Source of the DNA: Candidatus Lustribacter sp.
GTDB taxonomy: Bacteria > Vulcanimicrobiota > Vulcanimicrobiia > Vulcanimicrobiales > Vulcanimicrobiaceae
Assembly: GCA_965277805.1 (NCBI GenBank)
Contig: OZ255842.1
Location: 4,864,001 to 4,928,000 of the forward strand
Direction: 5' to 3'
Length of the DNA: 64,000 nt
Shown piece after piece: positions 2,803-22,525 of this stretch. The notes under the pieces are model-generated. The model worked only from the letters and a program-made list of their open reading frames with translations. It was not told where the DNA came from and did no database searches. Within the stretch, counting starts at the first letter, position 1. Each line of letters starts with the position of its first letter. The position numbers and the translations under genes are program-made.

Positions 2803-2805
2803 GGC

Positions 2806-5360: not shown

Positions 5361-5370
5361 GATAGTGCAC

Positions 5371-7954: not shown

Positions 7955-7967
7955 AGCTGGCTCAGTA

Positions 7968-8156: not shown

Positions 8157-8199
8157 GGTCATGGAGTTTTTGGCCTGGCGGTACACTGAACGGCTAGGT

Positions 8200-8760: not shown

Positions 8761-8870
8761 CGGGCATGCATTTTCGGACGGCGTCTGAGCACCCTCGGTG
8801 CAACCGACGAGGTTTAAGCTCATTCGTTAGTGCGCACCGTGTTCGATATTAGAGGCTTATCGGACTCGTG

Positions 8871-9098
8871 CTAATACGTTTTCTTCTTGGTTTGCACCGG
8901 GTTGGGGTGCTCTGTCGGCGCCGGGGTCGGCGCATGCGTTGATTCCACTACAGGCCCGCCGATATGGACGTACGGCTTTGCGAGATCCCATGCTGGCATT
9001 TCAATAAGGGCAAGAACACCGAGGACAATGGCGACTATCCAGCCCGTTCTACCGTCTTTGTTCTTCGCGAGCGTCTCGAGGTTCCCCCATTGTAACAC
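8871..9098 (-). CDS. Small single-TM protein or gene fragment
   Basis: One hydrophobic helix followed by a Pro/Thr-rich tail. Confidence 0.35.
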   Translation of the reverse strand: MLQWGNLETLAKNKDGRTGWIVAIVLGVLALIEMPAWDLAKPYVHIGGPVVESTHAPTPAPTEHPNPVQTKKKTY

Positions 9099-9253
9099 TT
9101 TACTAAAACGGACGTCTGGCTAAATGTTACAGAGCGCGCTTACGACTGTGTTGTCATCAGGCGATGCGGAAGTTCCCCCCGATAATTGGAGACCCAAAGG
9201 TGCGGGCCGGCCAGATCAATGGGTGCGCTGGCTACATGCTCGGGGGCCATTAT

Positions 9254-10537
9254 CTAGGTCTTCTGGCCTAGCAAATGCTCAATTTCCAATCGGCGCTGCG
9301 CTGTCGGCGGAAATGCTTCGTCAGAATCCATAACGCGAAGAATCTGAATCATCGGTCGATCTTCATCTGTTGCGAAGATATCGTCATTTCGCGCGGTATC
9401 GTTATCACCCGAAGTAGAGAGGACCGCCGCGACTCGGTTTGAGCCTGGATCATAAAATCCATAGAAGCGTTGGAACGGACAAGCATGTGGTTCGCATTCA
9501 TCGAAAATAACATATTGGCGACCATTTTGATCCACGAGCAGTTTTAGAGTCGATGCAACTCCGCCCGCGCCTTCTATCCATCGCGCTGACTTGCCGCGAG
9601 AAGTTCGCTCGGCGTCTTTAACGGCAGCGTTGAATGCGGAAGCGAACTTTGGATCACGGCGGTATAAGTCAAACGCATACGTAGAACCCGAGAGTGACGT
9701 CCCATCAAAGCTCGCGGGAAGCACTCCCGCTCTGAGCCCGAGAAAAAGCCGCTGGGCGGTTTCGATGTCGCTGACTTTCGGTTGCGTCGATTGAGTTTGT
9801 TGCGGCGCTGCCACCGGCGTGCCGGATGACCCGCTGAGATCCTTAGCTGCGTTGATTTCAACCGCAAGCCGATCATGCAAGTCCGACATCCGGCTCCATA
9901 TGCTATCCCACTGTGAACGACTTGCAGCCTCCTGTTCGTCCGAGGTCCTGTAAAGCGCAGCGACGTCCTCACTCGACCGATAAAATTGATGATTAACACT
10001 TGCGGCGACGCTGTCGTCGATGTCGCTAGCAGCGCGCAGCCAGTCGGAGAGACCCGTACCTTCTGCTTGGGATGCGGCGGAAATGTCAGCAATCAACGAC
10101 GACGTAGTTGCTTCACCGAAGTGGTCGCCTAAGGCAGTAGCCGCACCCCGCGCAGCATTCGCCTTCGCTTCTGAAAGCGCTCCGAGCTGTTCGACATCAT
10201 CCTTTTCGGTATTAATGTATCCGAGAATGTCCGCGTCGTCGCCCGGAGTTTTACTGTAGAGGTCGTGACGCTGTTGGCTCGCTTCCTCAGCATCCATTAG
10301 GACTTTGTCGTATTGATCTTTTGACGAAGAAAACTGCGCAAGTGTCGCATCGATGCGAGAGCCTAGCGCGCTTAGGCTTCGAAAATTCGCTAAGGCTACA
10401 GCTTGAGCCGCGGCGATGCGTGCTCGGTCCGCCGCGGCTGCGACATCGCGTTGGTGTTTTTCTACTCCGAACACTACGCCCGCACCGACAATGCAAATTA
10501 AGAAGACAAGGCCGAGGACAGTCCCTACCCGCTTCAT
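9254..10537 (-). CDS. Membrane-anchored coiled-coil protein with C-terminal Ivy-like lysozyme-inhibitor domain
   Basis: N-terminal TM anchor, helical stalk, P/Q/T linker, then CEPHAC matching the Ivy CKPHDC loop. Confidence 0.7.
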   Translation of the reverse strand: MKRVGTVLGLVFLICIVGAGVVFGVEKHQRDVAAAADRARIAAAQAVALANFRSLSALGSRIDATLAQFSSSKDQYDKVLMDAEEASQQRHDLYSKTPGDDADILGYINTEKDDVEQLGALSEAKANAARGAATALGDHFGEATTSSLIADISAASQAEGTGLSDWLRAASDIDDSVAASVNHQFYRSSEDVAALYRTSDEQEAASRSQWDSIWSRMSDLHDRLAVEINAAKDLSGSSGTPVAAPQQTQSTQPKVSDIETAQRLFLGLRAGVLPASFDGTSLSGSTYAFDLYRRDPKFASAFNAAVKDAERTSRGKSARWIEGAGGVASTLKLLVDQNGRQYVIFDECEPHACPFQRFYGFYDPGSNRVAAVLSTSGDNDTARNDDIFATDEDRPMIQILRVMDSDEAFPPTAQRRLEIEHLLGQKT

Positions 10538-10927: not shown

Positions 10928-11239
10928 TCAGGGATCGTACGTCGCCGCGGCAAACGCAGTGCGCTCGCGGCGCTCGGCGTTGCTGAGGTGGTGGCACCAT
11001 AATTCAGCGACCACGCTCGGGTCGTCTTCAAATGGAACAAAGTCAACCGCGATCACGACGAAGCTGTCTTGGCCACCGCCATCTTCCGCCGGGATATGCA
11101 GTTCTTTGCGATGCTCGTCGGACAGCTCAATGTTAACAAATTCACCGACGCATGGAACTCGCTCAAACGTTTGTTCGAGATTCATAACCCGCGTTAGAGT
11201 CTGCGTCGGACCGTAGAGATGAACAAAGACTGATCTCAT
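10928..11239 (-). CDS. Hypothetical protein coupled to terL
   Basis: ATG immediately follows the terL stop (TGAATG). Confidence 0.6.
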   Translation of the reverse strand: MRSVFVHLYGPTQTLTRVMNLEQTFERVPCVGEFVNIELSDEHRKELHIPAEDGGGQDSFVVIAVDFVPFEDDPSVVAELWCHHLSNAERRERTAFAAATYDP

Positions 11240-12505
11240 TCAGAAGCCTTTCGAATTTCCGCGCGTCATCAACACGCCGTAGCAGAATGTATCGAGCAGA
11301 TCTAGGCCGTCGCTCGCTTTGGAACCCACGCGGAAGTTCGTCACCTGTTTGATGAGGTGGTTGGCCGAGATACGCTTGTGGACTTTCGTCTTGTTGTAGG
11401 CGCGATCGGTGATCTTCACGTCGCCGGCATAGACGTACGGGCTCGCTGCAATCGCTCTTTCGTCTTTACCTAGAGCGGTAAGCTTTGAGTCGATCGCATG
11501 TGCCGGCCAGCCAGCATTGCGCGCCTGCTGCAGAAGCACGATGCCCGTGCCCTTTTCCTCAATCAGGGCGCCCGCCGAACCGTTCCGCGCCCCGCAGATC
11601 CGCGCAAGATCCTCGCACCGCTGAAAGATGGTCGGGAGCCAATTCGCCTGATCGGCCCCTTCGATAGACAGGACATCCCAATCGAGGATGAGCGTTTGCG
11701 GGTGCGTCAGGCTGTTGTAGCTCCACCACGTTACGCCGGTGGAGTTGTGCTCGGTGCCGCTCTTAATCGCCGTGTCGACCGTCGCGAGCACCACATCGCA
11801 GCGATCGGGGAACGGAGCGGGAGCCCCATTAATGAGCAGCGAGTCCAACGGGAAGAACGCAACGCCCGACCAGTCGACGAACTCGGCGAGGTACTCTTGC
11901 CGGTAGACCTCTGGTGAGTTTTCGAGTTCGAGCTTGGCGACCTCATCGGCGGGCAGGTAGGGATTCGTCGACGTCGGGGCGTGGAACTCGACGAACTCGC
12001 TCTGCGGGTCGTTGCAGATTGTGTAGAACCAGTTATCTTCGTCCTTGCCGGCGGGCGTAGAGAACACCCAACCAACCCCCCCGAAGTCGAGCAGCGTCGG
12101 CTTGATCGACTTGGACCAGATCTCTTCCATCTCGGGACCAGCGAACGCAGCTTCGTCAATCATGACGCCGTGATAATGGCGAGAGCGACCGGCGCGCTTG
12201 TTATTGAGCGTCCAGAAATCGACGCGCCCCCCGCCCGTGCAGCGAATGACCCCATCGATTTTCGAAGCCGAAATCGTGATCGGGTCAAGGATCTCGAAAA
12301 TCTCGCGATAGGTCTCGGACGTGATCTTGTAATCGGGAGCGAAAAGGCCCCATGATTCGCCGCGGGCAACGCGATCGCAAATGATCGTTGAGGCCATCGC
12401 CGTCTTGCCCCAGCGCCGCCCGCACCGGATGACCTTATATCGGCCCAGCACCCTCCACGCATCGATCTGGCCGCTATGCAGCTGCGGCAGCGTTATTGTG
12501 GGAAT
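11240..12505 (-). CDS. terL: Terminase large subunit
   Basis: LH.GQ motif, Walker A CGRRWGKT, Walker B VMIDEAAF, FSTP coupling motif, RQEYLAEF, nuclease-domain DTA; start inferred at ATT 12505. Confidence 0.92.
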   Translation of the reverse strand: MPTITLPQLHSGQIDAWRVLGRYKVIRCGRRWGKTAMASTIICDRVARGESWGLFAPDYKITSETYREIFEILDPITISASKIDGVIRCTGGGRVDFWTLNNKRAGRSRHYHGVMIDEAAFAGPEMEEIWSKSIKPTLLDFGGVGWVFSTPAGKDEDNWFYTICNDPQSEFVEFHAPTSTNPYLPADEVAKLELENSPEVYRQEYLAEFVDWSGVAFFPLDSLLINGAPAPFPDRCDVVLATVDTAIKSGTEHNSTGVTWWSYNSLTHPQTLILDWDVLSIEGADQANWLPTIFQRCEDLARICGARNGSAGALIEEKGTGIVLLQQARNAGWPAHAIDSKLTALGKDERAIAASPYVYAGDVKITDRAYNKTKVHKRISANHLIKQVTNFRVGSKASDGLDLLDTFCYGVLMTRGNSKGF

Positions 12506-12876
12506 TCGGGCAGTCCCCCGACGATTGTGATTTTCACGTCGGAAGGGACCGCATCGGCCTTCGGCGGCCCATAGAACTCGCGGAAGCGGCGCTCGAGCAC
12601 CCAGGTGGCCTGAGACGATCCGGTACCGCCCTCGAGCGCCTTGCAATGGAGATGGACTCCGCCACGCGCGACAGCGCGCATGATCCGATCGGCAAAATCC
12701 GGATACTGTTCTATCCAACGGTGAGCGGTGCTGCGGCTGACCCCCTCCGCCTCCGCAGCGAGAGCGACCGGCACGCCAAGCTCGAGATGGGCGCAAATCG
12801 CCTTCGCGATCGCTGGATCGACTTTCGCCTTTGGCGGTCGGCCGACGGGGCGGACTGTTTTCGGTCGTTCGCTCAT
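12493..12876 (-). CDS. terS: Terminase small subunit (HTH)
   Basis: GRPPK, HTH (AAEAEGVSRSTAHRW), A.WVLERRF..YG and C-terminal ITIVGGLP strand; overlaps terL. Confidence 0.8.
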   Translation of the reverse strand: MSERPKTVRPVGRPPKAKVDPAIAKAICAHLELGVPVALAAEAEGVSRSTAHRWIEQYPDFADRIMRAVARGGVHLHCKALEGGTGSSQATWVLERRFREFYGPPKADAVPSDVKITIVGGLPEFPQ

Positions 12877-12952
12877 GTGAATTGCGTGCCTGATAATGGG
12901 TGGTTATCGAGTGCACGGATGATCTCGCCGACGACCGGAACGAGGCCACCCA

Positions 12953-14671
12953 TCAGAATTGCGCCGTTGCGTTGATCGACGTCGCTACGTTCGAAGCGGT
13001 CGAGTTGGTAACGTGGACGTTCACGGCCGGCTTCGAGGAGCGCGCCGCGCGCTGCGAGGCATAGAACTGCTTCGAAATGAGCGCTTCGAACTTATCGGCG
13101 TACGCATTTTGCGAGGGGTAGGAGTGGCCGCCGTAGGTCTGCGGCGCATTGAGTTGCGCCTGCGATTCATCCCAGCTCCCCTCGCCACCGTACCATCCGA
13201 GGGCGATCATGCGCAGGATCTTCTTCGGGTCACTCGTCCGCTTCTCGGCATCGTGCAGCAGCTGCCCATAGAAATCGTTAAAGGCGGCAGTCTGCGCCTT
13301 CGGGCTGCCGAGGAAGTTGGCGCGACCGCGAGCAGTGCTCGTCGACCCGTACTTCGCGATCCACGCCTTGCCGAGGTGCGCGTCCGCCGTGCCGGGCATG
13401 AACTGCCACCGTCCAAGCGCGCCGCTATCGGCGTTGACGGACGTCCAGGAGCCTTCGATGCTTCCCAGCGCGTCGGCGGCTGCAGTGCGCACAATCGGCG
13501 TGCTCAGAGACCTCAGAGTCGGCGCGCCGACGATGCGCTCAAAGACCTGCGCAACGCTCGCGGCCGCGTGTTGAAGGCCGTGAAGCGCGGGGGTGACGCG
13601 CCGCTGAATGGTCTCGCCCAGCGACGCCGCTGCCCCCTTCTCCCCGGTGAGTGCGCCAAGCACTTGCGCGATGACCGGATCGGCGCCGGAGAGGTGATTG
13701 ATCGCAAAGCTCTGCGCGGCGATCCCCGCACCCTCGACGGCCTTCTTGAACGTCGCCGCGTGCGAGACAGCAGTGCGCGTGAGATTCAGCCGGCCAGCAT
13801 TGCGGGCTTCCTCGGCCTGCGATGCGGCGAGGGCCGCCGGTCCTAGCTTGAGCGCATTCCGAACATCCCCGATGTCGCCGCCGAACGACCGGTACGCCTG
13901 GACCGCCGGGATGTTCTCGAGCGGCACATCCGGCATGGCCTGCGCCGCCTTGACCACGCCGCCGAGCATTTTGTAGGCGAGATCTGAGGCCGTCATGATC
14001 CGGGCTTTGTTGAAATCGATTCCGAGCAATGACAAAGGGCCGATATTGCCCAGGTTGAGCTGCGCGTTGGCGGCGGCTTGCAGTGCTCCCGGGCCCATAA
14101 ACTGCTGGCCGTAGACGCCGAAACTCGCTTCTTGGCCCGGCGTAATGCCTTTGCTAAACGCCGAGCGCTGACGCGTGACCGCAGCGTCCGCAAGGGCCTT
14201 TGCCGCAGCTCCAGCACCTCCGACGGCCGCGGCGATCGCGCCGGCCGCAAGTCCCACGGGCCCAAGCGCAGAGAGTGCTCCTTCCGCTACGCCAGCGAGG
14301 CCGGAGCCGACTTTGCTGATACTGGCATCGGCTGCGCCGGAAAATGCCTTCCACGCGCTTTGTCCCGTCGTGCCGATGTTCCGCACCGACTCGTGCATCG
14401 TCGAGAGGCTCTTGTTGTTCGAGGCGGTCGCTTTCGCAAACGCGCTCTGAGCAGTGGTAGCGTCACGCAGGTGCACCGCAATAAGATCGGCCTGTGCCGC
14501 GGCTAGTGCGAGAGACTCTTTTGCGGTCGCCCCAGCGCCGCCCATCGCCTTGTTGAGTGACTCCCATTTCTCGGGCTGCTCGTCGAGCGATTCCGAATAG
14601 CCCATAAAGAGGTCCAGGAATTTCTGAAATTTCGAATCATCGAAATCGATCGAAATAATAGGGCGAGCCAT
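12953..14671 (-). CDS. Tape-measure-like protein with C-terminal lytic transglycosylase/lysozyme-like domain
   Basis: Ala/Gly-rich helical body with a hydrophobic segment; IEG...N..SGALGRWQFMPGT and WYGG lysozyme-like motifs; N-terminus (IISIDFDDSKFQKFLDLF) resembles myovirus TMPs as recalled. Confidence 0.75.
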   Translation of the reverse strand: MARPIISIDFDDSKFQKFLDLFMGYSESLDEQPEKWESLNKAMGGAGATAKESLALAAAQADLIAVHLRDATTAQSAFAKATASNNKSLSTMHESVRNIGTTGQSAWKAFSGAADASISKVGSGLAGVAEGALSALGPVGLAAGAIAAAVGGAGAAAKALADAAVTRQRSAFSKGITPGQEASFGVYGQQFMGPGALQAAANAQLNLGNIGPLSLLGIDFNKARIMTASDLAYKMLGGVVKAAQAMPDVPLENIPAVQAYRSFGGDIGDVRNALKLGPAALAASQAEEARNAGRLNLTRTAVSHAATFKKAVEGAGIAAQSFAINHLSGADPVIAQVLGALTGEKGAAASLGETIQRRVTPALHGLQHAAASVAQVFERIVGAPTLRSLSTPIVRTAAADALGSIEGSWTSVNADSGALGRWQFMPGTADAHLGKAWIAKYGSTSTARGRANFLGSPKAQTAAFNDFYGQLLHDAEKRTSDPKKILRMIALGWYGGEGSWDESQAQLNAPQTYGGHSYPSQNAYADKFEALISKQFYASQRAARSSKPAVNVHVTNSTASNVATSINATAQF

Positions 14672-14762
14672 AGATCTACCGTCCTTCACTTCGTGACAAC
14701 CGACGCGAGCGGCATCCGATGTCGCAGTATCTCACGCTAGCCCTCAAGTGTCAGCACCGACG

Positions 14763-14895
14763 TATCGGAACGAACGGCGTCACGCACGGGACGACCGGGC
14801 TTTCGCCCGACACGGGTCGCGTCGTGCGTCCGATAATAGGACCGTTACTGAAAACGATGAGCGGGCTCGCGCGTAACGCGCGTGGGCGATGAGCG
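14763..14895. promoter_or_regulatory. Structured intergenic element between replication and packaging modules
   Basis: Nested inverted repeats 14763-14835 closing CGGGC-GAAA-GCCCG on the minus strand; CGATGAGCG direct repeats (14855, 14887) flanking CGCGCG-TAA-CGCGCG. Confidence 0.45.
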
Positions 14896-14909
14896 TTTCG
14901 GAAAATGTC

Positions 14910-15089
14910 TCAGATGACATCATCGGCCTCGATCGTGACGACGAGGCGGATGGGAACCTCGTCCTCGGGAAGAGCGTCCTTGCGGACGTAGACGTACCGC
15001 ACCGGCGCGGTCACCTCATCGGCTTCGTAGCGCCAGTTCCGCATCGTCTCTTTCTCGCGGTGCAGGCGGACCTCGATCGGCTCCATCAT
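14910..15089 (-). CDS. Small phage-type beta-rich protein
   Basis: EKET...RY.......V.YVYVRK.AL....P..L.VTI pattern seen in small phage proteins. Confidence 0.6.
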   Translation of the reverse strand: MMEPIEVRLHREKETMRNWRYEADEVTAPVRYVYVRKDALPEDEVPIRLVVTIEADDVI

Positions 15090-15099
15090 CGATCCGCCA

Positions 15100-15519
15100 T
15101 CAGAGGGACCGCAATCGCTGTTCCAGCGCCTGCTCTTGCCGATCCAGATATGCGTCGCGTTCGGCTGTTGTGGCGAAACGCGCCGGCGTGCTTGGGGCAG
15201 GCCGGCTGAGACGCTTCGGTCTACGGCGGGCTGCGGGTTCGGGTTGTTCCGCTTTACGCGCGATCGGTGTCGGGGTTGCGATGGCAAGTCGCTCGAGAAC
15301 CGCGGCGCAGAAGGCTTCCGCGAGGACCGGCTCCAGCCAAAACGTTCGTTTGTGCTCATCGCCGATTGAGCGAGGCTTTGCGAACGCCGGTTTACCCACG
15401 GGCGCGAAGATGCAGATGTCGAACTTCCCGAACCCCGAGACGGCGATCGTTGCTGCGGCGACGAGACTGCCGTACTTTAGGCGCTCAACGGCCACGATGC
15501 GGAACGCTGGCTGCATCAT
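15100..15519 (-). CDS. Hypothetical protein, possible SpoVG/PC4-like ssDNA-binding fold
   Basis: ATGA-coupled to the upstream gene; GSLVAAATI...F..P beta pattern; replication-module context. Confidence 0.5.
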   Translation of the reverse strand: MMQPAFRIVAVERLKYGSLVAAATIAVSGFGKFDICIFAPVGKPAFAKPRSIGDEHKRTFWLEPVLAEAFCAAVLERLAIATPTPIARKAEQPEPAARRRPKRLSRPAPSTPARFATTAERDAYLDRQEQALEQRLRSL

Positions 15520-15872
15520 GACGTTGCCGGCCCTGAGCGCTCGACGCAGCGCCAGCAAATCCAAGAGCCGTTCGCATACTGGACACAGCGATCGATCTTC
15601 AGACAGCAACCGCACAGGCGTCCGCCGGCACTGAGGGCGCCGATCGCGGCCGCTACAACCGCTGAGGCTCGTGCTACTTCGACCGGTGAGCCACGGCGGT
15701 CGCAGACTTCGTACTCAACGAGCACTGCGCGGATCGCGTCGCGGTGCGGGCGAAGCCGCGTTACCCAAGCGTCAAGTTCGTCAGCCGGCGCGCGAACCCG
15801 AACCTCGGCGCCGACGACGGTGAATTCAAGCCCGCGCCGCCGCGCCTCGACGACGAGCGCCCACGCGTTCAA
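15516..15872 (-). CDS. Hypothetical protein (TubC-N-like helix-strand domain plus Zn ribbon)
   Basis: ARRRGLEFTVVGAEVRVRAP...LR.HR.AI..L and CGCC...CWRC. Confidence 0.55.
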   Translation of the reverse strand: MNAWALVVEARRRGLEFTVVGAEVRVRAPADELDAWVTRLRPHRDAIRAVLVEYEVCDRRGSPVEVARASAVVAAAIGALSAGGRLCGCCLKIDRCVQYANGSWICWRCVERSGPATS

Positions 15873-17341
15873 AGCATTGCCTCGGCGACCGGCGCACTGC
15901 TTTTCGACACGGCAACGGGCTCGACGGGGCTGTTTTCGCGAGTGCGGTCACGGTCACGGTCAATATATATATCTGACCGCTGACCGCGTTCGTTTAAGGA
16001 CGACGAGGAACGGTCCCCGTCCGAAGGGCCGGGGGACGCGTTCTCATCTCCGGATCGGCCTGCGCGGTCACGAGTGCGGTCAGACGTGACCGCGTTCAAA
16101 CCCCCGTCGCTACTGTTGTTTACGCGAACGCGGTCACGAGTGCGGTCACGAGCGACCGGGTTCGCGAGTGTCGGGGCGACCTGATCAGGCAGCCCGTACA
16201 GCGTCTTTCGCTCTATTTTTCCGATTACGACGATCGTTTTGGCCTTCTTGAGCTGTTCGAACGCCCGTTTCATGTTGCCGCGGTCAGCGCCGAGGGCGAC
16301 GATTGTGAGCGGCCCCTCGGCCTCGAGCCGGTCCAGAATGGCGCTCTCGGCGTCGGTGACTTTTTCGGCGACAGCTTCCGGCGAGGTCGCGTCGGCCGCG
16401 ATGATAATCGAGCATGGTGGCTCGCCGGACTCGAGCCGCGCGGTAATGGGCCACTCCGTTCCGGCCGCTACACCGTCGAGCGGGAAGCGCGTCTTGTCGA
16501 CCTTGAGCGCATGCATCGGCCGGCCGTCGCGGGATTTCAAGACGAGGTGAATATCCACAGCTGCGATGATGTCTCGGGATCCGCTGACCCGTTCCCGATC
16601 GGAGTTAGAGACGGCACCGATCTTTCGAACGTGATGTGCGACCACCGCTGCGCAGTCGTATGCTTGGCAGAGGCGCAGTAGGACCGCGAATGGACGGCGG
16701 ACCTCGCCAGCATCGTTCTCGTCAATTTCGAAGAGCGCCCGAAGCGTATCGAACACGATCACCGCCGGGCGGATCTGTTCAATGAGCCGCTCAAGCCGCT
16801 CGCAGTCCTGGTCGTTGAACCGAAATGTGGCGAGCCCGTCGCAGCCTTCGAAGATGATCCGCCCGGGCGGTACCGCGCCCCCGAATCCGGCCACGGCTTG
16901 GTGCACGTACTGCCTGAGCAGATCGCGCCCCATTTCGCCATTAATGTAGAGCACGGGACGCCCCGCCGCAGCTGTCTCGAATCGGCCGGCCGCTAGCGCA
17001 TCGAGAGCAAGCGCCACTGACGCGTGCATGAGGAACGCCGACTTGCCGCCGCCCGTATCAGCCGACACCAGGGTAACACCGCGCTCGGCGATCAGATGCT
17101 CGACCACGAATTTCGGCGGCTCGTACGACTGGCAAAGCAGATCCGCGGCGTCCAACGTTTGGAGACCGGCATCAGCGCCATCGGTTTCCAAGCGTTCTCC
17201 GGGCTTCGGCGCTGCGGAAAGCGCCATCGCCTTTTCGACGAGGTCCTTAAGTTGGTCGACGGTGCCACCTTCGGCAATCCAATCCGAAACGTCGAAGCCA
17301 TCGCTACGCATTCGCATCAAGCTCCACGATCCGCACGTCAT
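15869..17341 (-). CDS. RepA-type (AAA_25) replicative helicase; frameshifted C-terminal part of a primase-helicase
   Basis: Walker A ADTGGGKS, LYINGEM, Walker B IVFDTL, DEND, HHVRK, SGSRDI. Confidence 0.88.
   Translation of the reverse strand: MTCGSWSLMRMRSDGFDVSDWIAEGGTVDQLKDLVEKAMALSAAPKPGERLETDGADAGLQTLDAADLLCQSYEPPKFVVEHLIAERGVTLVSADTGGGKSAFLMHASVALALDALAAGRFETAAAGRPVLYINGEMGRDLLRQYVHQAVAGFGGAVPPGRIIFEGCDGLATFRFNDQDCERLERLIEQIRPAVIVFDTLRALFEIDENDAGEVRRPFAVLLRLCQAYDCAAVVAHHVRKIGAVSNSDRERVSGSRDIIAAVDIHLVLKSRDGRPMHALKVDKTRFPLDGVAAGTEWPITARLESGEPPCSIIIAADATSPEAVAEKVTDAESAILDRLEAEGPLTIVALGADRGNMKRAFEQLKKAKTIVVIGKIERKTLYGLPDQVAPTLANPVARDRTRDRVRVNNSSDGGLNAVTSDRTRDRAGRSGDENASPGPSDGDRSSSSLNERGQRSDIYIDRDRDRTRENSPVEPVAVSKSSAPVAEAML
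15939..16148. repeat. Iteron-like CGGTCA repeat cluster around an AT-rich spacer (candidate replication origin)
   Basis: Ten CGGTCA/TGACCG copies in ~210 bp; three direct and two inverted copies flank ATATATATATC. Confidence 0.75.
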
Positions 17342-17762
17342 TGCAAACGGCCGTTAAAAGCGCCCCGCGCTCAGCCGCTGCCTCACGGCCCGGCGCGTCG
17401 CAGTCGGGGATAACGACGATTTGCTTCGCTCCCCGGAAGTGCTCAGTGAATTCGGGCGTATACTTCCACGCCGCACCACCGGCGTTTGTGGTGGCACAGA
17501 AGCCAAGCGATTCTAAAGACTCAACGTCCTTTTCACCCTCCACGACGAAGATCGTTTGGCCTTCGGCTTTGCGCTCGAGTAACTGCGGTAGGTGGAATGG
17601 AATGCGTTCTACGCCATCCATATGCCATGTGTGTCCGCCATGTTTGTCGCATCGGCGCTGACGAAAGGTCTTCGGGAAGAAGCGCACCACTTCGTAAATC
17701 GGAGTGCCGGCTGCGTCTTGATAGACGTACACCTTTTCGATGCCGCGCTGCGACGCTGTCAT
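17304..17762 (-). CDS. TOPRIM primase domain (N-terminal part of a frameshifted primase-helicase)
   Basis: Y.Y.D..G....V.RF.PKTFRQ, FVVEGEKD, ATTNAGGA, IPDCDAPG. Confidence 0.88.
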   Translation of the reverse strand: MTASQRGIEKVYVYQDAAGTPIYEVVRFFPKTFRQRRCDKHGGHTWHMDGVERIPFHLPQLLERKAEGQTIFVVEGEKDVESLESLGFCATTNAGGAAWKYTPEFTEHFRGAKQIVVIPDCDAPGREAAAERGALLTAVCNDVRIVELDANA

Positions 17763-17995
17763 CTGCGGCCTTTCCTCGCTGGGAATAACTCACGCAGTTT
17801 TAAACCAACGGCAGCCATTATCGCAGCGATGGCGCAGCCGGAAAAACAACGGCAAAGAACCGTGCCGTCAGCAACTTCGCGAATGCTCAGCGAGGGCGAT
17901 CGATCGTCATGCGCTGGGCAACGAGCAATCCATTTTCGACCCGGCAATTCACGTACGCCATCGAGCCGCGGAAGCAACAAATCAATCGGCCGCAA
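17759..17995 (-). CDS. Stand-alone primase zinc-binding domain
   Basis: WIARCPAHDDRSPSLSI...CRCFSGC; TTG start 17995; ATGA overlap with the TOPRIM gene. Confidence 0.85.
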   Translation of the reverse strand: MRPIDLLLPRLDGVRELPGRKWIARCPAHDDRSPSLSIREVADGTVLCRCFSGCAIAAIMAAVGLKLRELFPARKGRR

Positions 17996-18188
17996 GAGAT
18001 CGGTCCAATTCCGCAGCGATCTGTGACCCGAGTCGCGCGTCCGGTAACGACATGTTAACGTGCACGCCATGCTCGGATTCGAGCATCTCCAAAATAGTAA
18101 GGAGGCGCGATGCGTCGTCGCAGTCGCCAAGTAGCGCAAGGCGTTCGCCTGCTCCTCCGCTTGCAAAGGCAGCCATCACATCATTCAT
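17982..18188 (-). CDS. Hypothetical protein
   Basis: ATGA-coupled downstream of the xis-like gene. Confidence 0.55.
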   Translation of the reverse strand: MNDVMAAFASGGAGERLALLGDCDDASRLLTILEMLESEHGVHVNMSLPDARLGSQIAAELDRSLAAD

Positions 18189-18427
18189 TGCGCCTTAACC
18201 ATGCTGCGTGCGATCCAAGCCAGCAATTCGCTAAACGCGATCCTTCGGTCAGCGCCGATCCTGACGTAACCGATTTCACCTGAGTTGATCAGACCGTGAA
18301 TCGTCGTTCGGCTGCAGCCCAGACGTATCGCCGCCTCGCTAATCGTCAACAACAGGGACTCGCAGCTGCTTTTGGGCTCGGACCGGTTCCGCGCGTCGCG
18401 TTTGTCTGTCCGTGGAAGGGCGTTCAT
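18185..18427 (-). CDS. Excisionase-family (HTH_17/MerR-like) DNA-binding protein
   Basis: LLTISEAAIRLGCSRTTIHGLINSGEI..VRIG..RRI. Confidence 0.88.
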   Translation of the reverse strand: MNALPRTDKRDARNRSEPKSSCESLLLTISEAAIRLGCSRTTIHGLINSGEIGYVRIGADRRIAFSELLAWIARSMVKAQ

Positions 18428-18480
18428 GTTCGTGAGCGTAGTTGTTACAAACGGCAATTTCCTAATGCGAGCATATCCAC

Positions 18481-19386
18481 TTGACGACAGTGAATGAAAA
18501 TAAGAAGGGTCTCCGGTGGCGCAAGACGGCCAACGCCATACTGACCGCGGCTGGTGTCAAACAGTCTTCCTTGGCCGCGGAGATCGGCGAAAAGGCGGGC
18601 TACGTCAATCGGTATTTGACGGGGAGGCGGATGCCGTCGCTACACGATGTGGAGCGTATCAATCGCGCGATCGCGCAACTCTCAGGCCTCGATAGAGTCG
18701 TCGACCTTCTCGAATTCGAAGCCCTCGCTAGCGGACTGCTCCCGGCGCGGGCTCTCACCGCCGAGGAGTTGGCCCGGGGCGCCAACCGCATTCTTTCGTG
18801 GTACCAGAGCTTTCTCAAACCGGGAACCACGAAGCGCATTATGGGGATCGCAGACACATTCGGTGAGTCGGCACGGCGCAGGCTCTTTATCCGCCTCAAT
18901 CTTGCGCTCCGGAGTATCGTGCTGGGGCAACTTCTGCCTTCCGAGCGCCCTGTCGGGCTCAGCGCGGTCATCGAGGCGCTCATCTCGAGCGGCATCCCGC
19001 TCGACGGAATCGAATCCGAACAAAGCACAAAGCTGCTCGCCTGGGAGCGCTTCGAATGTGTCGTGAACCACGAGATAGCCGCCGCCAATCCGGGTGCTTC
19101 GGCGCGTGAGCGCCTCGCCGCAGCTGGGCGCATTCGCGATGCCATCGATGGCATCGCGCTCGCTGCCGTCAATGTGAAGCCGGACTTCTCGGGACCGGCA
19201 GCTTTGATGGAGGTTACTAAGCCGGCGAGCGGCGCGCGCGAAAGCACGTTTCATGACGGCGCCCGCGCCGTGTGGGCACCATTTCAGCCGAAAGCACGGC
19301 ACTTCTTGAGCAATATTAACGTGCCGACTGCCGAGCCCATTGCAGGCCGTCCTTCGTCGCCGTCACGCCGCCGAGGCTCGCGGTGA
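18481..19386 (+). CDS. XRE-family HTH repressor-like protein
   Basis: GVKQSSLAAEIGEKAGYVNRYLTGRRMPS HTH; divergent from the xis-like gene. Confidence 0.75.
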   Translation: MTTVNENKKGLRWRKTANAILTAAGVKQSSLAAEIGEKAGYVNRYLTGRRMPSLHDVERINRAIAQLSGLDRVVDLLEFEALASGLLPARALTAEELARGANRILSWYQSFLKPGTTKRIMGIADTFGESARRRLFIRLNLALRSIVLGQLLPSERPVGLSAVIEALISSGIPLDGIESEQSTKLLAWERFECVVNHEIAAANPGASARERLAAAGRIRDAIDGIALAAVNVKPDFSGPAALMEVTKPASGARESTFHDGARAVWAPFQPKARHFLSNINVPTAEPIAGRPSSPSRRRGSR

Positions 19387-20791
19387 GCGAGGCCATGAGC
19401 TCGCGTTTCACTTCGTACTCCGCGCGATCGTAGAGAGGCCAGAAGTTCGAGAGGAGCCGCTTCGCTTGGTCGAAGTTGCGCCCTTTCGAATCCGTCGCGT
19501 CAACGCGCGCGCGGAGTTCCGCGAGCCGTGCGCGATCAGCTTCGGCCTTGTTGGCAAGGCGTCTTAGCTGGCGCTCGAGGTCCGCAGCCGCGTAGCTGCC
19601 GCCGATCGCGAGATCCCAAACGCGAGCCCGCGCGGCTTCGACCGTTGCGGGCGCAGTGGAGCGCTCAAGCGTTGCAATCTCACGACGAACCGCCTTCGCG
19701 TCATCGGTAGGGCGTTCACCGGCAACCCAGCGCTTCAGTAGATTTTCGTCGGCCGTAAGCATTCCGATCTGCTCGCGAAACCAGCCCTCCATCCGCTCGG
19801 CATTAATTGCCACGAGGCAAACGCGGCATTGATAGTACCGAATCCGCTTTGCGTCATATACGACCATTTTTCCGGACGCAAGCTTCTTGCGAATCACTCC
19901 CGAGCTCGAGTGTCCGCTAAATGCGCGGCCGCAACCCGCGCAGCGTACGGCGCCGGAAAGCGGATATTCCGACATGCGGGTTTGACGCCATCGCGGTTTA
20001 CCCGCGATGAGCGCTTGCACGCGGTCGAACAATTCTGGCTTCACGATCGTCCCGCGATAGCGACGCTGTACGAGTAATTTCTTCATCCGGTTTGATTCCC
20101 AGACGTGCTCGCGGCTGCGATAGATCGGCTTTCCATCGCTACCTAGCCGCGGCGTACGCACGACGTGAGGCGGCGCCCCTTCCGCAAAGCGGATCCCGAT
20201 CGTCTTGAACCCAACGCCGGCGGCATACCACTCGAAGGCTTTGCGGACCCACTCCGCACTCTTGGGCGCGGGGGCGTCGCGCTCGCTGTCGAGCTGCAGC
20301 CCGTACGGCACCTTATTCGATGTCGGCTTGCCCTCACGTCGACGGCGTTCCCACGATGCGCGGGCGCGATTACTGCGAGCCTCGTTCTCGGCTTCGCCGC
20401 CCATCGCCTGACCAGCGAGCGCGGCGCGCTGCGCGAACGTCTCGGCTTTGATAACGCCAGCGTCGCGGACGAATAGTTCGACCTTCATACCCTTGAGCGC
20501 ACGCGCGACGACGAGCGTGTCGGTCATGTCGCGTGAGAGCCTGTCCAATGAAGTCACAGCAAGCTGCTGCGGTCGCTTAGCGGCCGGCAGCTCTTGCAAC
20601 GCGGCGATCATGCGTTGAAATTCAGGCCGGCCGATCGTCGTCTTGGCCGAGGCGCGCTCTTTGAAGATCGTGATGGCCTGGTCGGCTGCTGCCGCGTGCT
20701 TCCTAGCCCATCGCTCTTGTTCATCGAGCGAGAGTTCTTGCTCGCCCTTCGTCGTGCTGACGCGACAGTAGGCCCAGATTCCGTGCGGCAT
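19316..20791 (-). CDS. Large serine recombinase (integrase)
   Basis: AYCRVST catalytic Ser, SLDRLSR, PYG recombinase domain, LSG..RC..CG / YYQC zinc ribbon, coiled coil. Confidence 0.95.
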   Translation of the reverse strand: MPHGIWAYCRVSTTKGEQELSLDEQERWARKHAAAADQAITIFKERASAKTTIGRPEFQRMIAALQELPAAKRPQQLAVTSLDRLSRDMTDTLVVARALKGMKVELFVRDAGVIKAETFAQRAALAGQAMGGEAENEARSNRARASWERRRREGKPTSNKVPYGLQLDSERDAPAPKSAEWVRKAFEWYAAGVGFKTIGIRFAEGAPPHVVRTPRLGSDGKPIYRSREHVWESNRMKKLLVQRRYRGTIVKPELFDRVQALIAGKPRWRQTRMSEYPLSGAVRCAGCGRAFSGHSSSGVIRKKLASGKMVVYDAKRIRYYQCRVCLVAINAERMEGWFREQIGMLTADENLLKRWVAGERPTDDAKAVRREIATLERSTAPATVEAARARVWDLAIGGSYAAADLERQLRRLANKAEADRARLAELRARVDATDSKGRNFDQAKRLLSNFWPLYDRAEYEVKRELMASLTASLGGVTATKDGLQWARQSAR

Positions 20792-20804
20792 GGTCGATAT
20801 GTGT

Positions 20805-20860
20805 TGACTCTATGCGTAATTTCCTTTATGCTCGCCGTGGGGATGTGTAAGGAGCATCAA
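20805..20860. other. Hybrid attachment site (comEC/element junction), crossover near 20832-20833
   Basis: comEC reads ...THPHG then diverges (GAG CAT AAA GGA AAT TAC GCA TAG); imperfect symmetry TTGA...GC-GA-GC...TCAA about the GA dinucleotide. Confidence 0.7.
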
Positions 20861-22525
20861 GTCGATCTGGTGGACGCCGGTGCGGCGCAGGTAGCCGAGC
20901 ACGATTCGTGTGCCGGCGCGTTCGGCGTTGGAGGTGGGGCCGGAACGTTCGAGTTCGCCGCCGGTGTCGATGAGGATAACGTGGTCGTGCGGGGTGCGGA
21001 TGACGGCAGCATCGGCCTGCCCGACGTCGAGGTGCGTGATCTCGAGGCCGTGCGGGAAATGCATGAGGGCGGGGAGCGCGACGATGACGCAAGCGCTTGC
21101 AAATGTGCCGGCGGCGAGAGTCGCGCGGCCGTGCCGTAACGCGACGGCGGCGGCGATCGCCATGACGTCGTAGGCCACGATCGCGGTAATGGGTGGAGTC
21201 GCCAGCGTCGCGCGCGCGCCGGGGAACGCTGCAATCGTGCGGACGATCGTCTCCGCCGTAAGCAACAACAATGTTTCGAGTGGCGCGAGCGGCGGCAGCA
21301 CGAGCGTCGCGATTCCGACGATGAGGATCACAGCGACGAGCGGTACGACGATCGCGTTAGCGAGAATTGCGAACGGCGCGAGCGTGGAGAAGACGGCGGC
21401 GGTCAGCGGCCAGGTACCGATCTGCGTCGCGCAGGTTAGTGCCAGTGCTTCCCGCACGCGCTCGTGCAGGGGTAGTGCCTCGAGAGCGCGCGCGATCGGT
21501 TCGGCGAAGAGCACGATGGCGGCGACGCACGAGAACGACAGCGCAAACGATGCGCTGCCGGCCGCCGCCGGCCACAAAAAGGCGACGACCAATCCCGCCA
21601 GGGCCAGAGCATTCCACGATGTCACCCGCGCGCCGCACGCGCGTGCCAGCAAGGCGACACCGATCATGGCCGCCGCGCGCTCCGACGGCAGATGCGCGCC
21701 CGTAAACCACGCATACGCGACGATCAGCACCAGCGCAATAGCGCACGCCGCGATGCGGTGCAATCCCAGTAGGGCCAGCAAAAACGCGACGAGGCCCGCG
21801 ACGATCCCTAAGTGCAAACCCGCGGTAACGAGCACGTGCACCGTGCCGGTGGCTTGGAAGGCGTCGTGGAGGTCGTCGGGCAGCGTGCCGCGCTCGCCCC
21901 ACAGCGCGCCGGCCAGAATCGTGGCCGACGGTTCGGGGATGCTCTCGCGTACCCGGTGCGAAGCGGCGGCGCGCAAACGCGCGGCCCACGCGCGCACGTC
22001 GTGCGCGTCCGGAGACGCACGCCCAAGCAAATGCACGCTCGCCAGCCGTCCGGCAAATCCATCGTCGCGTTCGATTTCGCGCATCGACGGTTCGCCCGGA
22101 TTACGCGGCTCATCGAACGGTTCGAGACGGCCGCGCACGACGATGCGTTCGCCCGGCATCACACGCTCGCGTAACGTCGCGCGCACCGTTCCGACGCCGT
22201 CGATTGCAAGCGCGGTGCTTGATAGGCCGCTGTCCTCTTCCTCGCGGACATCGCCGATGACGGTCGCGACGTAACGGGCGGTGGCGCGTTCGCTCGTGAG
22301 CGTCGTGGGATGTCCACGGAGTGCCGAAATTCCGGCACCCGCCGCACACGCGAGCGCCACGGCAACGATGGTAATCCGCAGCCGGCTGCCGCGGCCACAA
22401 TAAACCCACGAGGCCGTGCAAGCAAGCCCGACGGCCGTGCACGCCGCACCGGCCCACCCATGCTGCTCGGCGACGATCGCGAGGAGCGCGGCAATGGCGG
22501 GAACGAGCAGAGGAGCACGGCGCAC
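20810..22525 (-). pseudogene. comEC: ComEC/Rec2 competence protein, 5' part interrupted in the MBL domain
   Basis: OB-like region with PRNPGE, competence domain TGTVHVLVTAGLH / SFALSF, MBL start LDVGQAD, LIDTGG, THPH followed by a premature stop. Confidence 0.92.

What the first reader, a model, noticed from the sequence alone, without database searches (positions are those of the whole stretch)
11240..20831. Candidate new phage-satellite type: integrase-repressor-xis-primase/helicase plus a TMP-terS-terL module, with no capsid, portal or tail
Seen: a compact ~9.6 kb core with a PICI-like backbone (integrase, divergent repressor/xis, primase-helicase with iterons). Only three morphogenesis genes follow, in the order tape-measure, terS, terL, and then unrelated cargo. 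Known: in tailed phages the order is terS-terL-portal-capsid-tail-TMP, so simple deletion would not put TMP upstream of terS. PICIs usually carry terS only, cf-PICIs carry terminase with portal and capsid, and P4 carries sid/psu. Satellites with their own TMP have been reported (Vibrio PLEs, mycobacterial EPIPs; recalled, not checked). Inference: a helper-dependent element that supplies its own packaging motor and DNA-delivery protein and borrows procapsids and tail shells.
Basis: partly seen in the sequence, partly recalled or inferred. Interest (0 to 1): 0.88.

Follow-up and report, generated by a model that had tools for sequence, protein, structure and literature searches.

The report
Satellite-like island with terminase and tape-measure
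A mobile island that splits the competence gene comEC carries its own DNA-packaging motor and tail tape-measure gene but no capsid, portal or other tail genes, so it looks like a parasite of a 50-kb phage rather than a phage or simple debris.

Summary
The 9.6 kb is the integrase end of a 37,255-bp insertion that a large serine recombinase placed in the HPHGDH-coding site of comEC; 16.4 kb of it lies left of the window. I scanned 39 ORFs of the whole insertion, and none beyond TMP, TerS and TerL hit a portal, capsid or tail family.

TMP and TerL are full-length relatives of genes that lie about 25 kb apart in complete ~50-kb myoviruses, with portal, capsid and sheath between them. Neither shows relaxed constraint.

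Two junctions recur elsewhere:
- The backbone-to-TMP junction is kept in a metagenome contig (72% identity over 362 aligned TMP codons).
- A second element, in another genus, has integrase, primase-helicase, terS and terL followed by non-structural cargo. It shares an ATT codon where phage TerLs have ATG.

The TMP-to-terS junction could not be checked in any relative.

Against an active element:
- The primase-helicase has a +1 frameshift relative to its closest homologue.
- About 27 kb of the insertion is mosaic cargo with IS debris.
- No excision signal was seen.

Verdict: a satellite-type element, or a recent derivative of one (0.5). It is a new variant of a known kind, because PLEs and EPIPs already carry TMPs.

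The parts
20810..22525 (-). 5' part of comEC (571 aa), the gene the island split. It is cut inside the metallo-beta-lactamase HPHGDH motif. The 3' part lies outside the window at L007 2966-3576 (genome 4846966-4847576).
   Evidence: Pfam Competence E 1.3e-46, and Lactamase_B covering only profile positions 2-56 of 196. tblastn with the intact 769-aa ComEC of relative G003. Junction sequences.
20832..20838 (.). Right att core ACGGCGA. The same 7 bases are at the left junction, L007 3570-3576. The insertion is genome 4847577-4884831, 37,255 bp.
   Evidence: Joining the two flanks restores ...CCC CAC GGC GAT CAC... (PHGDH) in frame, as in the intact genes of four relatives. The two element ends carry inverted TATGTGTT and T(T/A)ATTTCC blocks around the core.
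19316..20791 (-). Large serine recombinase (491 aa), the island's integrase.
   Evidence: Pfam Resolvase, Recombinase and Zn_ribbon_recom; phrog_95. Orthologues of 51-62% identity sit beside comEC fragments in 5 of 5 fetched loci.
18481..19386 (+). HTH_3/HTH_31 regulator (301 aa), divergent from the replication and packaging genes.
18185..18457 (-). HTH_17 (AlpA/excisionase-like) ORF, 90 aa.
   Evidence: Pfam HTH_17 E 3.7e-13; phrog_66 excisionase/regulator; 42% identical ORF in the G323 element.
17759..18166 (-). CHC2 zinc-ribbon primase N-terminal ORF (135 aa). Its stop overlaps the next start (ATGA).
   Evidence: phrog_6088 E 2.6e-12; Pfam Zn_ribbon_DnaG E 9e-4, below the cut-off; sequence.
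17304..17762 (-). Toprim primase domain ORF (152 aa). It ends at a +1 frameshift relative to homologue P0017.
   Evidence: Pfam Toprim. P0017 residues 1-104 align to this ORF and 105-585 to the next one. Sequence at 17304-17341. Identical in Logan contigs of runs X1 and X2.
15869..17341 (-). AAA_25 (RepA/DnaB-like) helicase, 490 aa. Its 3' end holds the iteron cluster 15944-16148, which encodes DRTRDR repeats.
   Evidence: Pfam AAA_25 E 2.2e-28; 16 homologues besides its own record among the 17 proteins listed; iterons; 0 singleton deviations in 66 conserved columns.
15516..15872 (-). 118-aa ORF, no known family.
15100..15516 (-). Small backbone protein of about 138 aa with a SpoVG-like predicted fold. 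It is not a tail chaperone.
   Evidence: 12 homologues. Model pLDDT 81.8. SpoVG 2i9z_A Z 7.9, 81 of 87 residues aligned, next row Z 5.9. Atlas lead of 0.88. hhalign against the phage chaperone-position family gives probability 0.3%. A homologue lies next to the helicase in L040.
14910..15089 (-). 59-aa ORF directly upstream of TMP, conserved in L028.
   Evidence: 62% identity over 58 codons.
12953..14689 (-). Tape-measure protein (578 aa) with a C-terminal domain resembling a lytic transglycosylase.
   Evidence: Homologues sit between the chaperone-position and baseplate ORFs of myoviruses. 13 homologues besides its own record among the 14 proteins listed, up to 66% identity. All-alpha model; residues ~391-550 match MltC at Z 7.8 and other lytic transglycosylases. 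1 singleton deviation in 90 conserved columns. dN/dS 0.16 against L028.
12493..12876 (-). Terminase small subunit (127 aa).
   Evidence: Pfam Sf6_terminase; phrog_4102 and phrog_1482. 53% identical to the terS of L008 and 31% to that of G022.
11240..12505 (-). Terminase large subunit (about 421 aa). It has ATT where phage homologues have the ATG start, and overlaps terS by 13 nt as in the phages.
   Evidence: 3 singleton deviations in 183 conserved columns, against 1-7 for the 18 other rows that have any. dN/dS 0.12-0.14. Tree.
10928..11239 (-). 103-aa ORF that starts at the base after the TerL stop. No family, and no homologue in the phages.
9254..10537 (-). 427-aa ORF with a hydrophobic N-terminal stretch (read from the sequence) and a C-terminal Ivy (lysozyme-inhibitor) domain. 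First cargo gene.
   Evidence: Pfam Ivy E 7.5e-7.
1..9253 (.). Cargo of the same insertion. It continues to L007 3577 outside the window. It includes a SocA/Panacea protein, a C1 peptidase-GNAT fusion and duplicated segments. Left of the window it includes Schlafen AlbA_2, DUF4268, an IS3 rve_3 fragment and a tyrosine recombinase.
   Evidence: GC is 0.53-0.62 against 0.643 for the genome.

Best explanation
The 9.6-kb stretch is the integrase end of a 37,255-bp island that a large serine recombinase inserted into the HPHGDH-coding site of comEC. That end is built like a phage satellite:
- an integrase;
- a divergent HTH regulator and an excisionase-like HTH_17 gene;
- a Zn-ribbon/Toprim primase plus an AAA_25 helicase with iterons;
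- a small SpoVG-like protein;
- a tape-measure protein, TerS and TerL.

The last three were taken from ~50-kb myoviruses that infect this bacterial family.

Shown:
- the boundaries of the insertion;
- the identity of the genes;
- the absence of matches to the capsid, portal, sheath and other phage families tested;
- the intactness of, and constraint on, TMP, TerL and the helicase;
- recurrence of two of the junctions elsewhere.

Inferred life cycle:
1. A helper myovirus infects the cell.
2. Int plus the HTH_17 protein excise the island.
3. The primase-helicase replicates it from the iterons.
4. Its own TerS/TerL pack its DNA by headful into helper procapsids. At 37 kb it fits a 50-kb head.
5. 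Its own TMP is built into helper baseplate, tube and sheath to give chimeric tails, as was shown experimentally for Vibrio PLEs.

TerL is probably translated at a low level from a conserved AUU start. This copy may be replication-impaired because of a +1 frameshift inside the primase-helicase.
For: 1. One unit. comEC is split, the flanks rejoin in frame, and the two element ends form an attP-like inverted repeat.
2. No structural genes. Among 39 ORFs of the whole insertion scanned by Pfam and/or PHROGs, only TMP, TerS and TerL are virion or packaging genes. No ORF of phage G022 other than TerS and TerL, plus two non-structural ORFs (2467-2889, 4293-5513) with matches far outside the island, hits the genome by tblastn at 1e-6. 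PF05065 and PF04860 are absent from the genome.
In the complete myovirus G022, terS-terL lie at 8.0-9.6 kb and TMP at 34.2-36.1 kb, with portal, protease, capsid and sheath between them. In 9 of 9 listed loci the TMP homologue is followed by the same 217-251-aa ORF family rather than by terS.
4. Whole genes with clean edges and no fragments of neighbouring phage genes.
5. Constraint. Singleton deviations at conserved columns: TerL 3 of 183 (18 other rows have 1-7, six have none), TMP 1 of 90, helicase 0 of 66. dN/dS is 0.16 for TMP against L028, and 0.14 for TerL against L021 compared with 0.12-0.14 against phages.
6. Recurrence.
   - L028 keeps the small-protein, 59-aa ORF, TMP order at 72% TMP identity over 362 aligned codons.
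   - The small protein belongs to the helicase backbone (L040) and is not a tail chaperone.
   - The G323 element has a tyrosine integrase, regulator, HTH_17, Toprim primase-helicase, ParB-methylase, terS and terL, followed by an 869-aa non-structural ORF. That genome has no G022-type portal or capsid protein.
7. Start codon. ATT replaces ATG in 2 of 2 satellite-like lineages and 0 of 4 phage loci. The two ATT TerLs are not sisters in a 113-row tree.
8. Precedent. PLEs build chimeric tails with their own TMP (10.1101/2025.01.29.635557, passages). EPIPs carry a serine integrase, terS and TMP (PMC12822802, passages).
Against: - The Toprim and helicase parts are continuous in the closest homologue P0017 (77% identity). 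Here one extra base at ~17308 separates them. The same sequence appears in the Logan contigs of runs X1 and X2, though these may be the very sample the genome was assembled from.
- TerL has no ATG, GTG or TTG at the homologous start.
- About 27 kb of the insertion is low-GC mosaic cargo, with IS3 debris, a second recombinase, internal duplications and copies elsewhere in the genome. This is far beyond the size of known satellites.
- The TMP-terS junction was not found in any second sequence.
- The closest full-length TMP homologues (P0003 on a 34.8-kb contig, P0004) share no contig length with any of the top 120 TerL hits.
- Five orthologous comEC integrases carry unrelated cargo, so the integrase does not define a satellite family.
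- No tail assembly chaperone was recognised next to TMP.
Confidence: 0.5

Rival explanations
1. Dead mosaic. The island is a genomic island that has accumulated pieces of phages and other mobile elements by illegitimate recombination. TMP, terS and terL are leftovers with no present role and are only recently inactive. The element no longer moves.
For: - Primase-helicase frameshift.
- No canonical TerL start.
- IS3 fragments, inverted and direct duplications, a second recombinase and low-GC cargo.
- TerL fragments survive as debris in relatives: G323:C49 holds residues 335-415 and G168:C33 holds a C-terminal half.
- The full arrangement was seen in only one genome: TMP in 3 of 348 family genomes and TerL in 4 of 401 phylum genomes, G000 included.
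Against: - Three whole genes drawn from two distant parts of a phage genome, with clean edges and no neighbouring fragments, are unlikely by chance.
- There is no excess of changes at conserved positions.
- The backbone-TMP junction is kept at dS 1.3 with dN/dS 0.16.
- ATT is shared by two lineages whose TerLs differ by ~30%, so it is not a fresh lesion.
- Both comEC halves are still open and rejoin in frame.
Confidence: 0.3
2. Domesticated island. The serine recombinase and its comEC site form a reversible switch of competence, as with intervening elements in Bacillus sporulation genes and the Listeria comK prophage (both recalled). Alternatively the island is a defence island in which TerS, TerL and TMP act as decoys that disturb packaging or tail assembly of infecting myoviruses, without the island itself being transferred.
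For: - 5 of 5 orthologous integrases sit at the same comEC site with varied cargo, much of it with no recognisable function.
- Both comEC halves are intact and rejoin in frame.
- No second comEC copy exists.
- The cargo includes SocA/Panacea, Schlafen AlbA_2 and DUF4268.
- In the G323 element TerL is followed by an 869-aa ORF with a nuclease-like C-terminus, as read from the sequence.
- Satellites and prophages are known to interfere with tail assembly and packaging (titles and abstracts listed).
Against: - A decoy needs no full replication module with iterons. It also does not need both terminase subunits kept catalytically intact: Walker A and the conserved columns are unchanged.
- A competence switch explains the integrase but not TMP, terS and terL.
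- No excision was seen, although only contigs were available.
Confidence: 0.13

Closest known systems
Vibrio cholerae PLEs (satellites of the myovirus ICP1)
   Same: The satellite carries its own TMP, a diverged relative of the helper's, and builds chimeric contractile tails. The PLE TMP is shorter than the helper's (582 against 677 aa; 10.1101/2025.01.29.635557, passages). Here the TMP is 578 aa against 593-644 aa in related phages. The related phages are also myoviruses. PLE integrases are large serine recombinases (recalled, not checked).
   Different: PLEs also encode a tail chaperone, some encode a baseplate hub, and they encode a capsid scaffold, TcaP (passages). No chaperone was recognised here. 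In the passages I read, PLEs are not reported to carry TerS plus TerL; this island does. There is no sequence relationship, and the host phylum is different.
EPIPs of Mycolicibacterium aichiense (PMC12822802, preprint, passages read)
   Same: Serine integrase, HTH regulator, terS and a TMP in a small element that lacks tail and holin genes.
   Different: EPIPs list head-to-tail adaptor and stopper, scaffold and a major capsid protein. They list no TerL and no primase-helicase. This island has TerL and a primase-helicase and no match to any head family tested.
Capsid-forming PICIs (cf-PICI)
   Same: Integrase, regulator and primase backbone, with both terS and terL. terL is a cf-PICI core gene (PMC10085698, passages).
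   Different: cf-PICIs are defined by their own capsid, portal, protease and head-tail connector genes, and by having no tail genes. Here it is the reverse: no match to head families and one tail gene.
Classical PICIs / SaPIs
   Same: The gene order integrase, regulators, primase-replicase with iterons, terS, then accessory genes. The 9.6-kb core matches the 9.5-kb median size given for PICIs (PMC10085698, passage).
   Different: PICIs have no TerL, and tail genes are 'forbidden' components in the detection model. The usual integrase is a tyrosine recombinase (recalled). The whole insertion is 37 kb.
~50-kb myoviruses of this bacterial family (IMG/VR records behind G022 and G023)
   Same: TerL is 70-71% identical to G022 and G023, and up to 84% identical to metagenome proteins, some on 49.7-57.5-kb contigs. 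The terS-terL overlap of 13 nt is the same as in G022. TMP shares the N-terminal ~340 aa and the last ~30 aa.
   Different: The phages carry portal, protease, capsid, sheath, tube, chaperone-position and baseplate genes between and after these, and their TerL starts with ATG.

Membership tests
PICI | Integrase, regulator and primase-replicase module | tested here: met
   The integrase is a serine recombinase.
PICI | terS as the only packaging gene; no tail genes ('forbidden' in SatelliteFinder, PMC10085698 passage) | tested here: not met
   TerL and TMP are present.
cf-PICI | terL together with terS | tested here: met
cf-PICI | Own capsid, portal, protease and head-tail adaptor/connector genes | tested here: not met
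   No such family in the 39 ORFs scanned. No G022 structural homologue in the genome. PF05065 and PF04860 are absent.
PLE | Satellite-encoded TMP related to the helper myovirus TMP | tested here: met
PLE | Tail assembly chaperone next to TMP | tested here: inconclusive
   The ORF upstream of TMP is SpoVG-like (Z 7.9) and has no similarity to the chaperone-position family. The 59-aa and 118-aa ORFs were not modelled.
PLE | Sequence kinship with PLE genes (TcaP, RepA and others) and an ICP1-type helper | not tested
   No PLE sequence was fetched. The host phylum differs (record titles).
EPIP | Serine integrase, terS and TMP | tested here: met
   EPIP gene list from passages of PMC12822802.
EPIP | Head-to-tail adaptor and stopper, scaffold, major capsid protein | tested here: not met
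   None found.
Complete temperate myovirus (prophage) | Portal, capsid, sheath, tube and baseplate genes within the att-bounded unit | tested here: not met
   The whole 37,255-bp unit was scanned.
Any phage satellite (functional definition) | Helper-dependent packaging and transfer in virions | not testable with these tools
   Only assembled contigs of one sample were available, and they show no excision signal.

The most novel reading that the evidence does not exclude
This is a distinct satellite family of Vulcanimicrobiota (Eremiobacterota) that brings only a packaging motor (TerS plus TerL, with TerL translated from a conserved AUU start) and, in one branch, a tape-measure protein with its own cell-wall-cutting domain. 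It takes procapsids, portal, and the tail tube, sheath and baseplate from ~50-kb myoviruses. It is therefore the mirror image of cf-PICIs. It rides on a comEC-specific serine integrase, so that lysogeny switches off DNA uptake.
Probability: 0.3. Interest if true: 0.75.

Novelty: new variant of a known kind. Interest (0 to 1): 0.55.

Why it matters
If it is functional, the combination TerS plus TerL plus TMP, with no head genes, matches none of the satellite families whose gene lists I could read.
- cf-PICIs make heads and steal tails.
- PICIs bring only TerS.
- PLEs and EPIPs bring a TMP together with capsid-related genes.

It would extend satellite-made chimeric tails, shown so far only in Vibrio, to a barely studied, mostly uncultured phylum. 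It would also show that a satellite can rely on a foreign portal for its own TerL.

The ATT start shared by two satellite-like TerLs, but by none of four phage TerLs, is a simple testable marker.

The comEC-specific serine integrase family matters for how competence is lost, and perhaps regained, in these bacteria.

Tried and rejected
- **Reads.** Laying four runs of one sample on window 9000-23000 gave contigs that cross the right junction without change, and no loose end at 20832 among the 24 of 201 loose ends listed. These are assembled contigs of what may be the source sample, so this says nothing about excision. No RNA holder was listed.
- **Scans that found no relative.**
  - TerL in genome contigs.
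  - TMP alone in viral contigs.
  - TMP profile in genome contigs.
  - Helicase in viral contigs: one weak 27-residue match and none with the profile.
  - The 171-aa ORF in viral contigs.
- **Earlier scan notes.** Nothing found.
- **Short TerL predictions as a marker.** I considered using the short predicted TerL proteins (384-408 aa) as a sign of missing start codons. I dropped this because P0064, from L008, is called short although its DNA has the ATG.
- **Tail chaperone upstream of TMP.**
  - Profile comparison with six chaperone-position proteins gave probability 0.3%.
  - No chaperone appeared among the 50 listed fold matches.
  - Pfam on the 13-member family gave nothing useful.
- **TMP model.** It is poor (mean pLDDT 47.5). 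Only the grouping of lysozyme-like and lytic-transglycosylase rows for residues ~391-550 (Z 5.0-7.8) is used, as modest support. Foldseek libraries were not searched.
- **Possible -1 frameshift.** A G-run 8-9 nt upstream of the ATT could allow a -1 shift from terS into terL (read). It reads more simply as a ribosome-binding site. Not tested.
- **tRNA targets.** None in the window or in L021.

Full report
**1. Observation**

Family searches identify them as follows:
- a large serine recombinase at 19316-20791;
- a divergent HTH_3/HTH_31 regulator at 18481-19386 (+);
- an HTH_17 excisionase-like ORF at 18185-18457;
- three consecutive ORFs carrying a CHC2 zinc ribbon, a Toprim domain and an AAA_25 helicase domain (17759-18166, 17304-17762, 15869-17341);
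- a small terminase subunit at 12493-12876;
- a large terminase subunit at 11240-12505.

The 578-aa ORF at 12953-14689 has no Pfam family and only a weak PHROG hit (phrog_7694, E 3.5e-4).

The iterons are real. The heptamer GCGGTCA occurs 8 times in 15944-16148, out of 31 copies in the 64-kb window. The cluster lies inside the 3' end of the helicase gene, where it encodes DRTRDR repeats that homologues also carry.

**2. True extent**

The gene next to the integrase is comEC, cut inside its metallo-beta-lactamase domain. Relatives of the same genus have intact open frames of 744-769 aa.

The intact ComEC of G003 matches the own genome in two pieces. Residues 1-581 lie at the integrase. True homology from about residue 567 onward lies 37 kb to the left, outside the window.

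Both junctions carry ACGGCGA. Joining the flanks restores PHGDH in frame, as at the intact sites of four relatives. The two element ends carry inverted TATGTGTT and T(T/A)ATTTCC blocks around the core, as expected of an attP.

The insertion is genome 4847577-4884831, which is 37,255 bp, or window -16423 to 20831. It coincides with a low-GC stretch. There is no second comEC copy.

**3. Content of the rest**

I scanned 39 ORFs of the insertion with Pfam and/or PHROGs. Apart from the genes above, they gave:
- a tyrosine recombinase;
- an IS3 rve_3 fragment;
- DUF4268 and DUF4440 proteins;
- a Schlafen AlbA_2 protein;
- a SocA/Panacea protein;
- a C1 peptidase-GNAT fusion;
- an Ivy-domain protein;
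- unknowns.

None hit a portal, capsid, protease, sheath, tube, baseplate or lysis family.

The cargo has internal duplications and copies elsewhere in the genome. The 9.6-kb core is unique.

**4. What the three morphogenesis genes are**

TerL has 2,862 relatives at E <= 1e-20. The closest are 84% (P0034) and 80% identical (P0035), and many of the close ones sit on contigs of 49-58 kb. Four IMG/VR contigs hold TerLs of 69-71% identity.

One of those, G022 (51.8 kb, rated 100% complete), has the standard order. terS and terL lie at 8.0-9.6 kb, followed by portal, head morphogenesis, protease, capsid and sheath. Then come a tube-position ORF, a chaperone-position ORF, a 633-aa ORF of phrog_7694, and a baseplate hub.

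That 633-aa ORF is the homologue of the window's 578-aa protein.

In all 9 loci whose ORFs I listed, the homologue is followed by the same 217-251-aa ORF family. These loci are L025, L026, L029, L030, L031, L032, L034, L041 and G022. In 7 of them it is preceded by a 194-224-aa chaperone-position ORF. In L026 and L041 the upstream ORFs were unclear.

The window protein shares the first ~340 and the last ~30 residues with these homologues. Its model is all-alpha but poor (pLDDT 47.5). Residues ~391-550 group with lytic transglycosylases, for example MltC at Z 7.8. Some homologues have Pfam SLT at that position.

It is therefore a tape-measure protein of a myovirus lineage.

**5. Intact or decaying?**

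*Conserved-column test.* At columns where all, or all but one, homologues agree:

| Protein | Singleton deviations | Comparison |
|---|---|---|
| TerL | 3 of 183 | 18 other rows have 1-7; six have none |
| TMP | 1 of 90 | |
| Helicase | 0 of 66 | |

*Pairwise dN/dS.* It is 0.16 for TMP against L028. For TerL it is 0.14 against L021 and 0.12-0.14 against three phage loci.

*First blemish: the TerL start.* Phage homologues begin MPT(I/V)TLP, whereas the window reads IPTITLP with ATT. No ATG, GTG or TTG occurs before the Walker A region except a GTG that would remove the conserved LH-GQ stretch. The same ATT, in the same GAATTCCCAC context, is present in a second element (L021) whose TerL is 71% identical over 421 aligned codons. 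The phage loci L008, L009, L010 and L011 all have ATG. In a 113-row tree the two ATT TerLs are not sisters, and well-supported branches force two changes. ATT is therefore either convergent or part of a shared terS-end/terL-start segment. It is not a fresh lesion.

*Second blemish: the primase-helicase.* The closest homologue P0017 (77% identity) runs straight from Toprim into the helicase. One extra base at ~17308 breaks this in the window. P0029 fuses all three domains, while P0018 and P0021 are stand-alone helicases that start further downstream. The downstream ORF has its own ATG codons, so the split may be tolerated, but I count it against activity.

Both features are identical in the Logan contigs of runs X1 and X2.

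**6. Does the arrangement recur?**

- *Backbone to TMP: yes.* The 1.67-kb metagenome contig L028 has the end of the small backbone protein, the 59-aa ORF and then TMP, at 72% identity over 362 aligned TMP codons. That small protein belongs to the replication backbone. A homologue lies beside the helicase in L040. Its family of 12 relatives has a SpoVG-like model: pLDDT 81.8, with SpoVG at Z 7.9 against 5.9 for the next row. It does not match the phage chaperone-position family.
- *terS-terL without heads: yes.* In genome G323 (a different genus of the same family) the order is tyrosine integrase, regulator, HTH_17 ORF, 891-aa Toprim primase-helicase, 109-aa ORF, ParB-methylase, terS and terL (ATT). 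An 869-aa non-structural ORF and a resolvase fragment follow before the contig ends 5 kb later. G323 (93% complete) has no G022-type portal or capsid protein. The ATT pattern found only this element: 1 locus in genome contigs, and 3 loci in viral contigs with identical gene content. For comparison, in the four phage loci a ~494-500-aa ORF follows TerL within 1.8 kb. It was identified as portal in G022 only.
- *TMP to terS: not testable.* Close TMP relatives exist (P0003 at 66% identity, P0004 at 61%), but their contigs could not be fetched.
- *The integrase is a separate module.* Orthologues of 51-62% identity lie beside comEC fragments in 5 of 5 fetched loci, from the 12 family genomes with a match. 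Their adjacent ~16 kb (about 5 kb in L050) share nothing with the core or with G022.

Occurrence in genomes:

| Gene | Genomes with a match (G000 included) |
|---|---|
| TerL | 4 of 401 (phylum sample) |
| TMP | 3 of 401 (phylum sample) |
| TMP | 3 of 348 (family) |
| Helicase | 5 of 348 (family) |

**7. Helper**

No second TerL or TMP copy exists in the genome. No other G022 structural gene is present, and there is no PF05065 capsid or PF04860 portal. One sub-threshold sheath match lies at 1.11 Mb. Any helper would therefore be an infecting phage of the ~50-kb group.

**8. Mechanism and rivals**

The order backbone-TMP-terS-terL cannot be reached from the phage order by deletions or by one inversion. 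All three genes are whole and constrained, and two of the three junctions are kept in diverged relatives.

The best reading (0.5) is a helper-dependent element. It would excise with Int plus the HTH_17 protein and replicate from its iterons. It would pack its own DNA with its own terminase into helper procapsids, and place its own TMP in helper tails.

The rivals are:
- a dead mosaic (0.3), supported by the frameshift, the size, the debris and the single full example;
- a domesticated island (0.13), acting either as a competence switch or as a decoy-type defence.

**9. Comparison with what is known**

These points come from passages only:
- Tail and holin genes are treated as absent from satellites, and terL is treated as a cf-PICI core gene (PMC10085698).
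- VEIMEs have terS homologues (PMC9618062).
- Streptomyces satellites carry terS, terL, portal and capsid (PMC10690885).
- All PLEs encode a TMP and chaperone, and PLE11 virions contain the PLE TMP. That paper also states that unrelated satellites encode predicted tmp genes (10.1101/2025.01.29.635557).
- EPIPs have a serine integrase, terS, TMP and head-related genes (PMC12822802).

A satellite-borne TMP is therefore known. The set TerS plus TerL plus TMP with no head genes did not appear in what I read, or in my searches. Supplements and extended-data figures were closed and may show one.

**10. Limits**

- There is no direct evidence of excision, packaging or expression.
- The TMP-terS junction rests on one genome.
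- Gene calls in relatives came from a simple longest-ORF script.
- PHROG confirmation of phage genes was done for G022 only.

Noticed in passing
L049-L053 (G367, G048, G408, G345, G066); window 19316-20838: A serine-integrase family specific for the HPHGDH-coding site of comEC. In 5 of 5 fetched orthologue loci the integrase abuts a comEC fragment, in either orientation. The cargo is low-GC (0.56-0.62) and unrelated between loci.
   Followed up: partly
window 12503-12505; L021 9555-9557: ATT replaces the ATG start of TerL in two satellite-like elements whose TerLs are not sisters in the tree. A G-run 8-9 nt upstream could be a ribosome-binding site or a -1 slip site from terS into the terL frame.
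   Followed up: partly
window 9254-10537 and 12953-13500: An ORF with a hydrophobic N-terminal stretch and an Ivy (lysozyme/transglycosylase inhibitor) domain lies two genes after TerL. The island's TMP carries a lytic-transglycosylase-like domain. This may be an enzyme-inhibitor or superinfection-exclusion pair. Binding was not tested.
   Followed up: no
window 18203-18558: Run X3 holds extra low-depth contigs with 4-8 differences per ~125 bases in the regulator/excisionase intergenic region. This suggests a second allele or a related element in the same sample.
   Followed up: no
L007 8000-9500 and window 1115-1617; genome 2484762-2486258: Cargo segments are duplicated inside the island (506 bp at 93%), and a 1.5-kb segment is 92% identical to a place 2.4 Mb away. 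Window 7576-8053 has two further copies near 2.04 and 2.11 Mb.
   Followed up: no
L024 (G323:C49) 9744-12088: A ~300-bp remnant of the TerL 3' end sits among ordinary chromosomal ORFs. It lies 1.9 kb from a homologue (72% identity) of the island's cargo ORF 4534-4926.
   Followed up: no
G002:C3 1007929-1009631: In a same-genus genome comEC is broken into pieces in several frames with TGA stops, without an insertion. Competence genes seem to be lost repeatedly in this genus.
   Followed up: no
L054 (genome 1110617-1110841): A 588-aa ORF has a sub-threshold Phage_sheath_1 match (30.5 bits, cut-off 31.4), far from the island. It may belong to a contractile injection system or another phage remnant.
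   Followed up: no
L038/L039 (G004:C32) 13113-18939: A small element in a same-genus genome has a tyrosine integrase, an HTH ORF and a truncated helicase of the same family. It also has a 72% identical copy of the small ORF at the island's far left end (L007 3655-3909). This links both ends of the island to one backbone family.
   Followed up: partly
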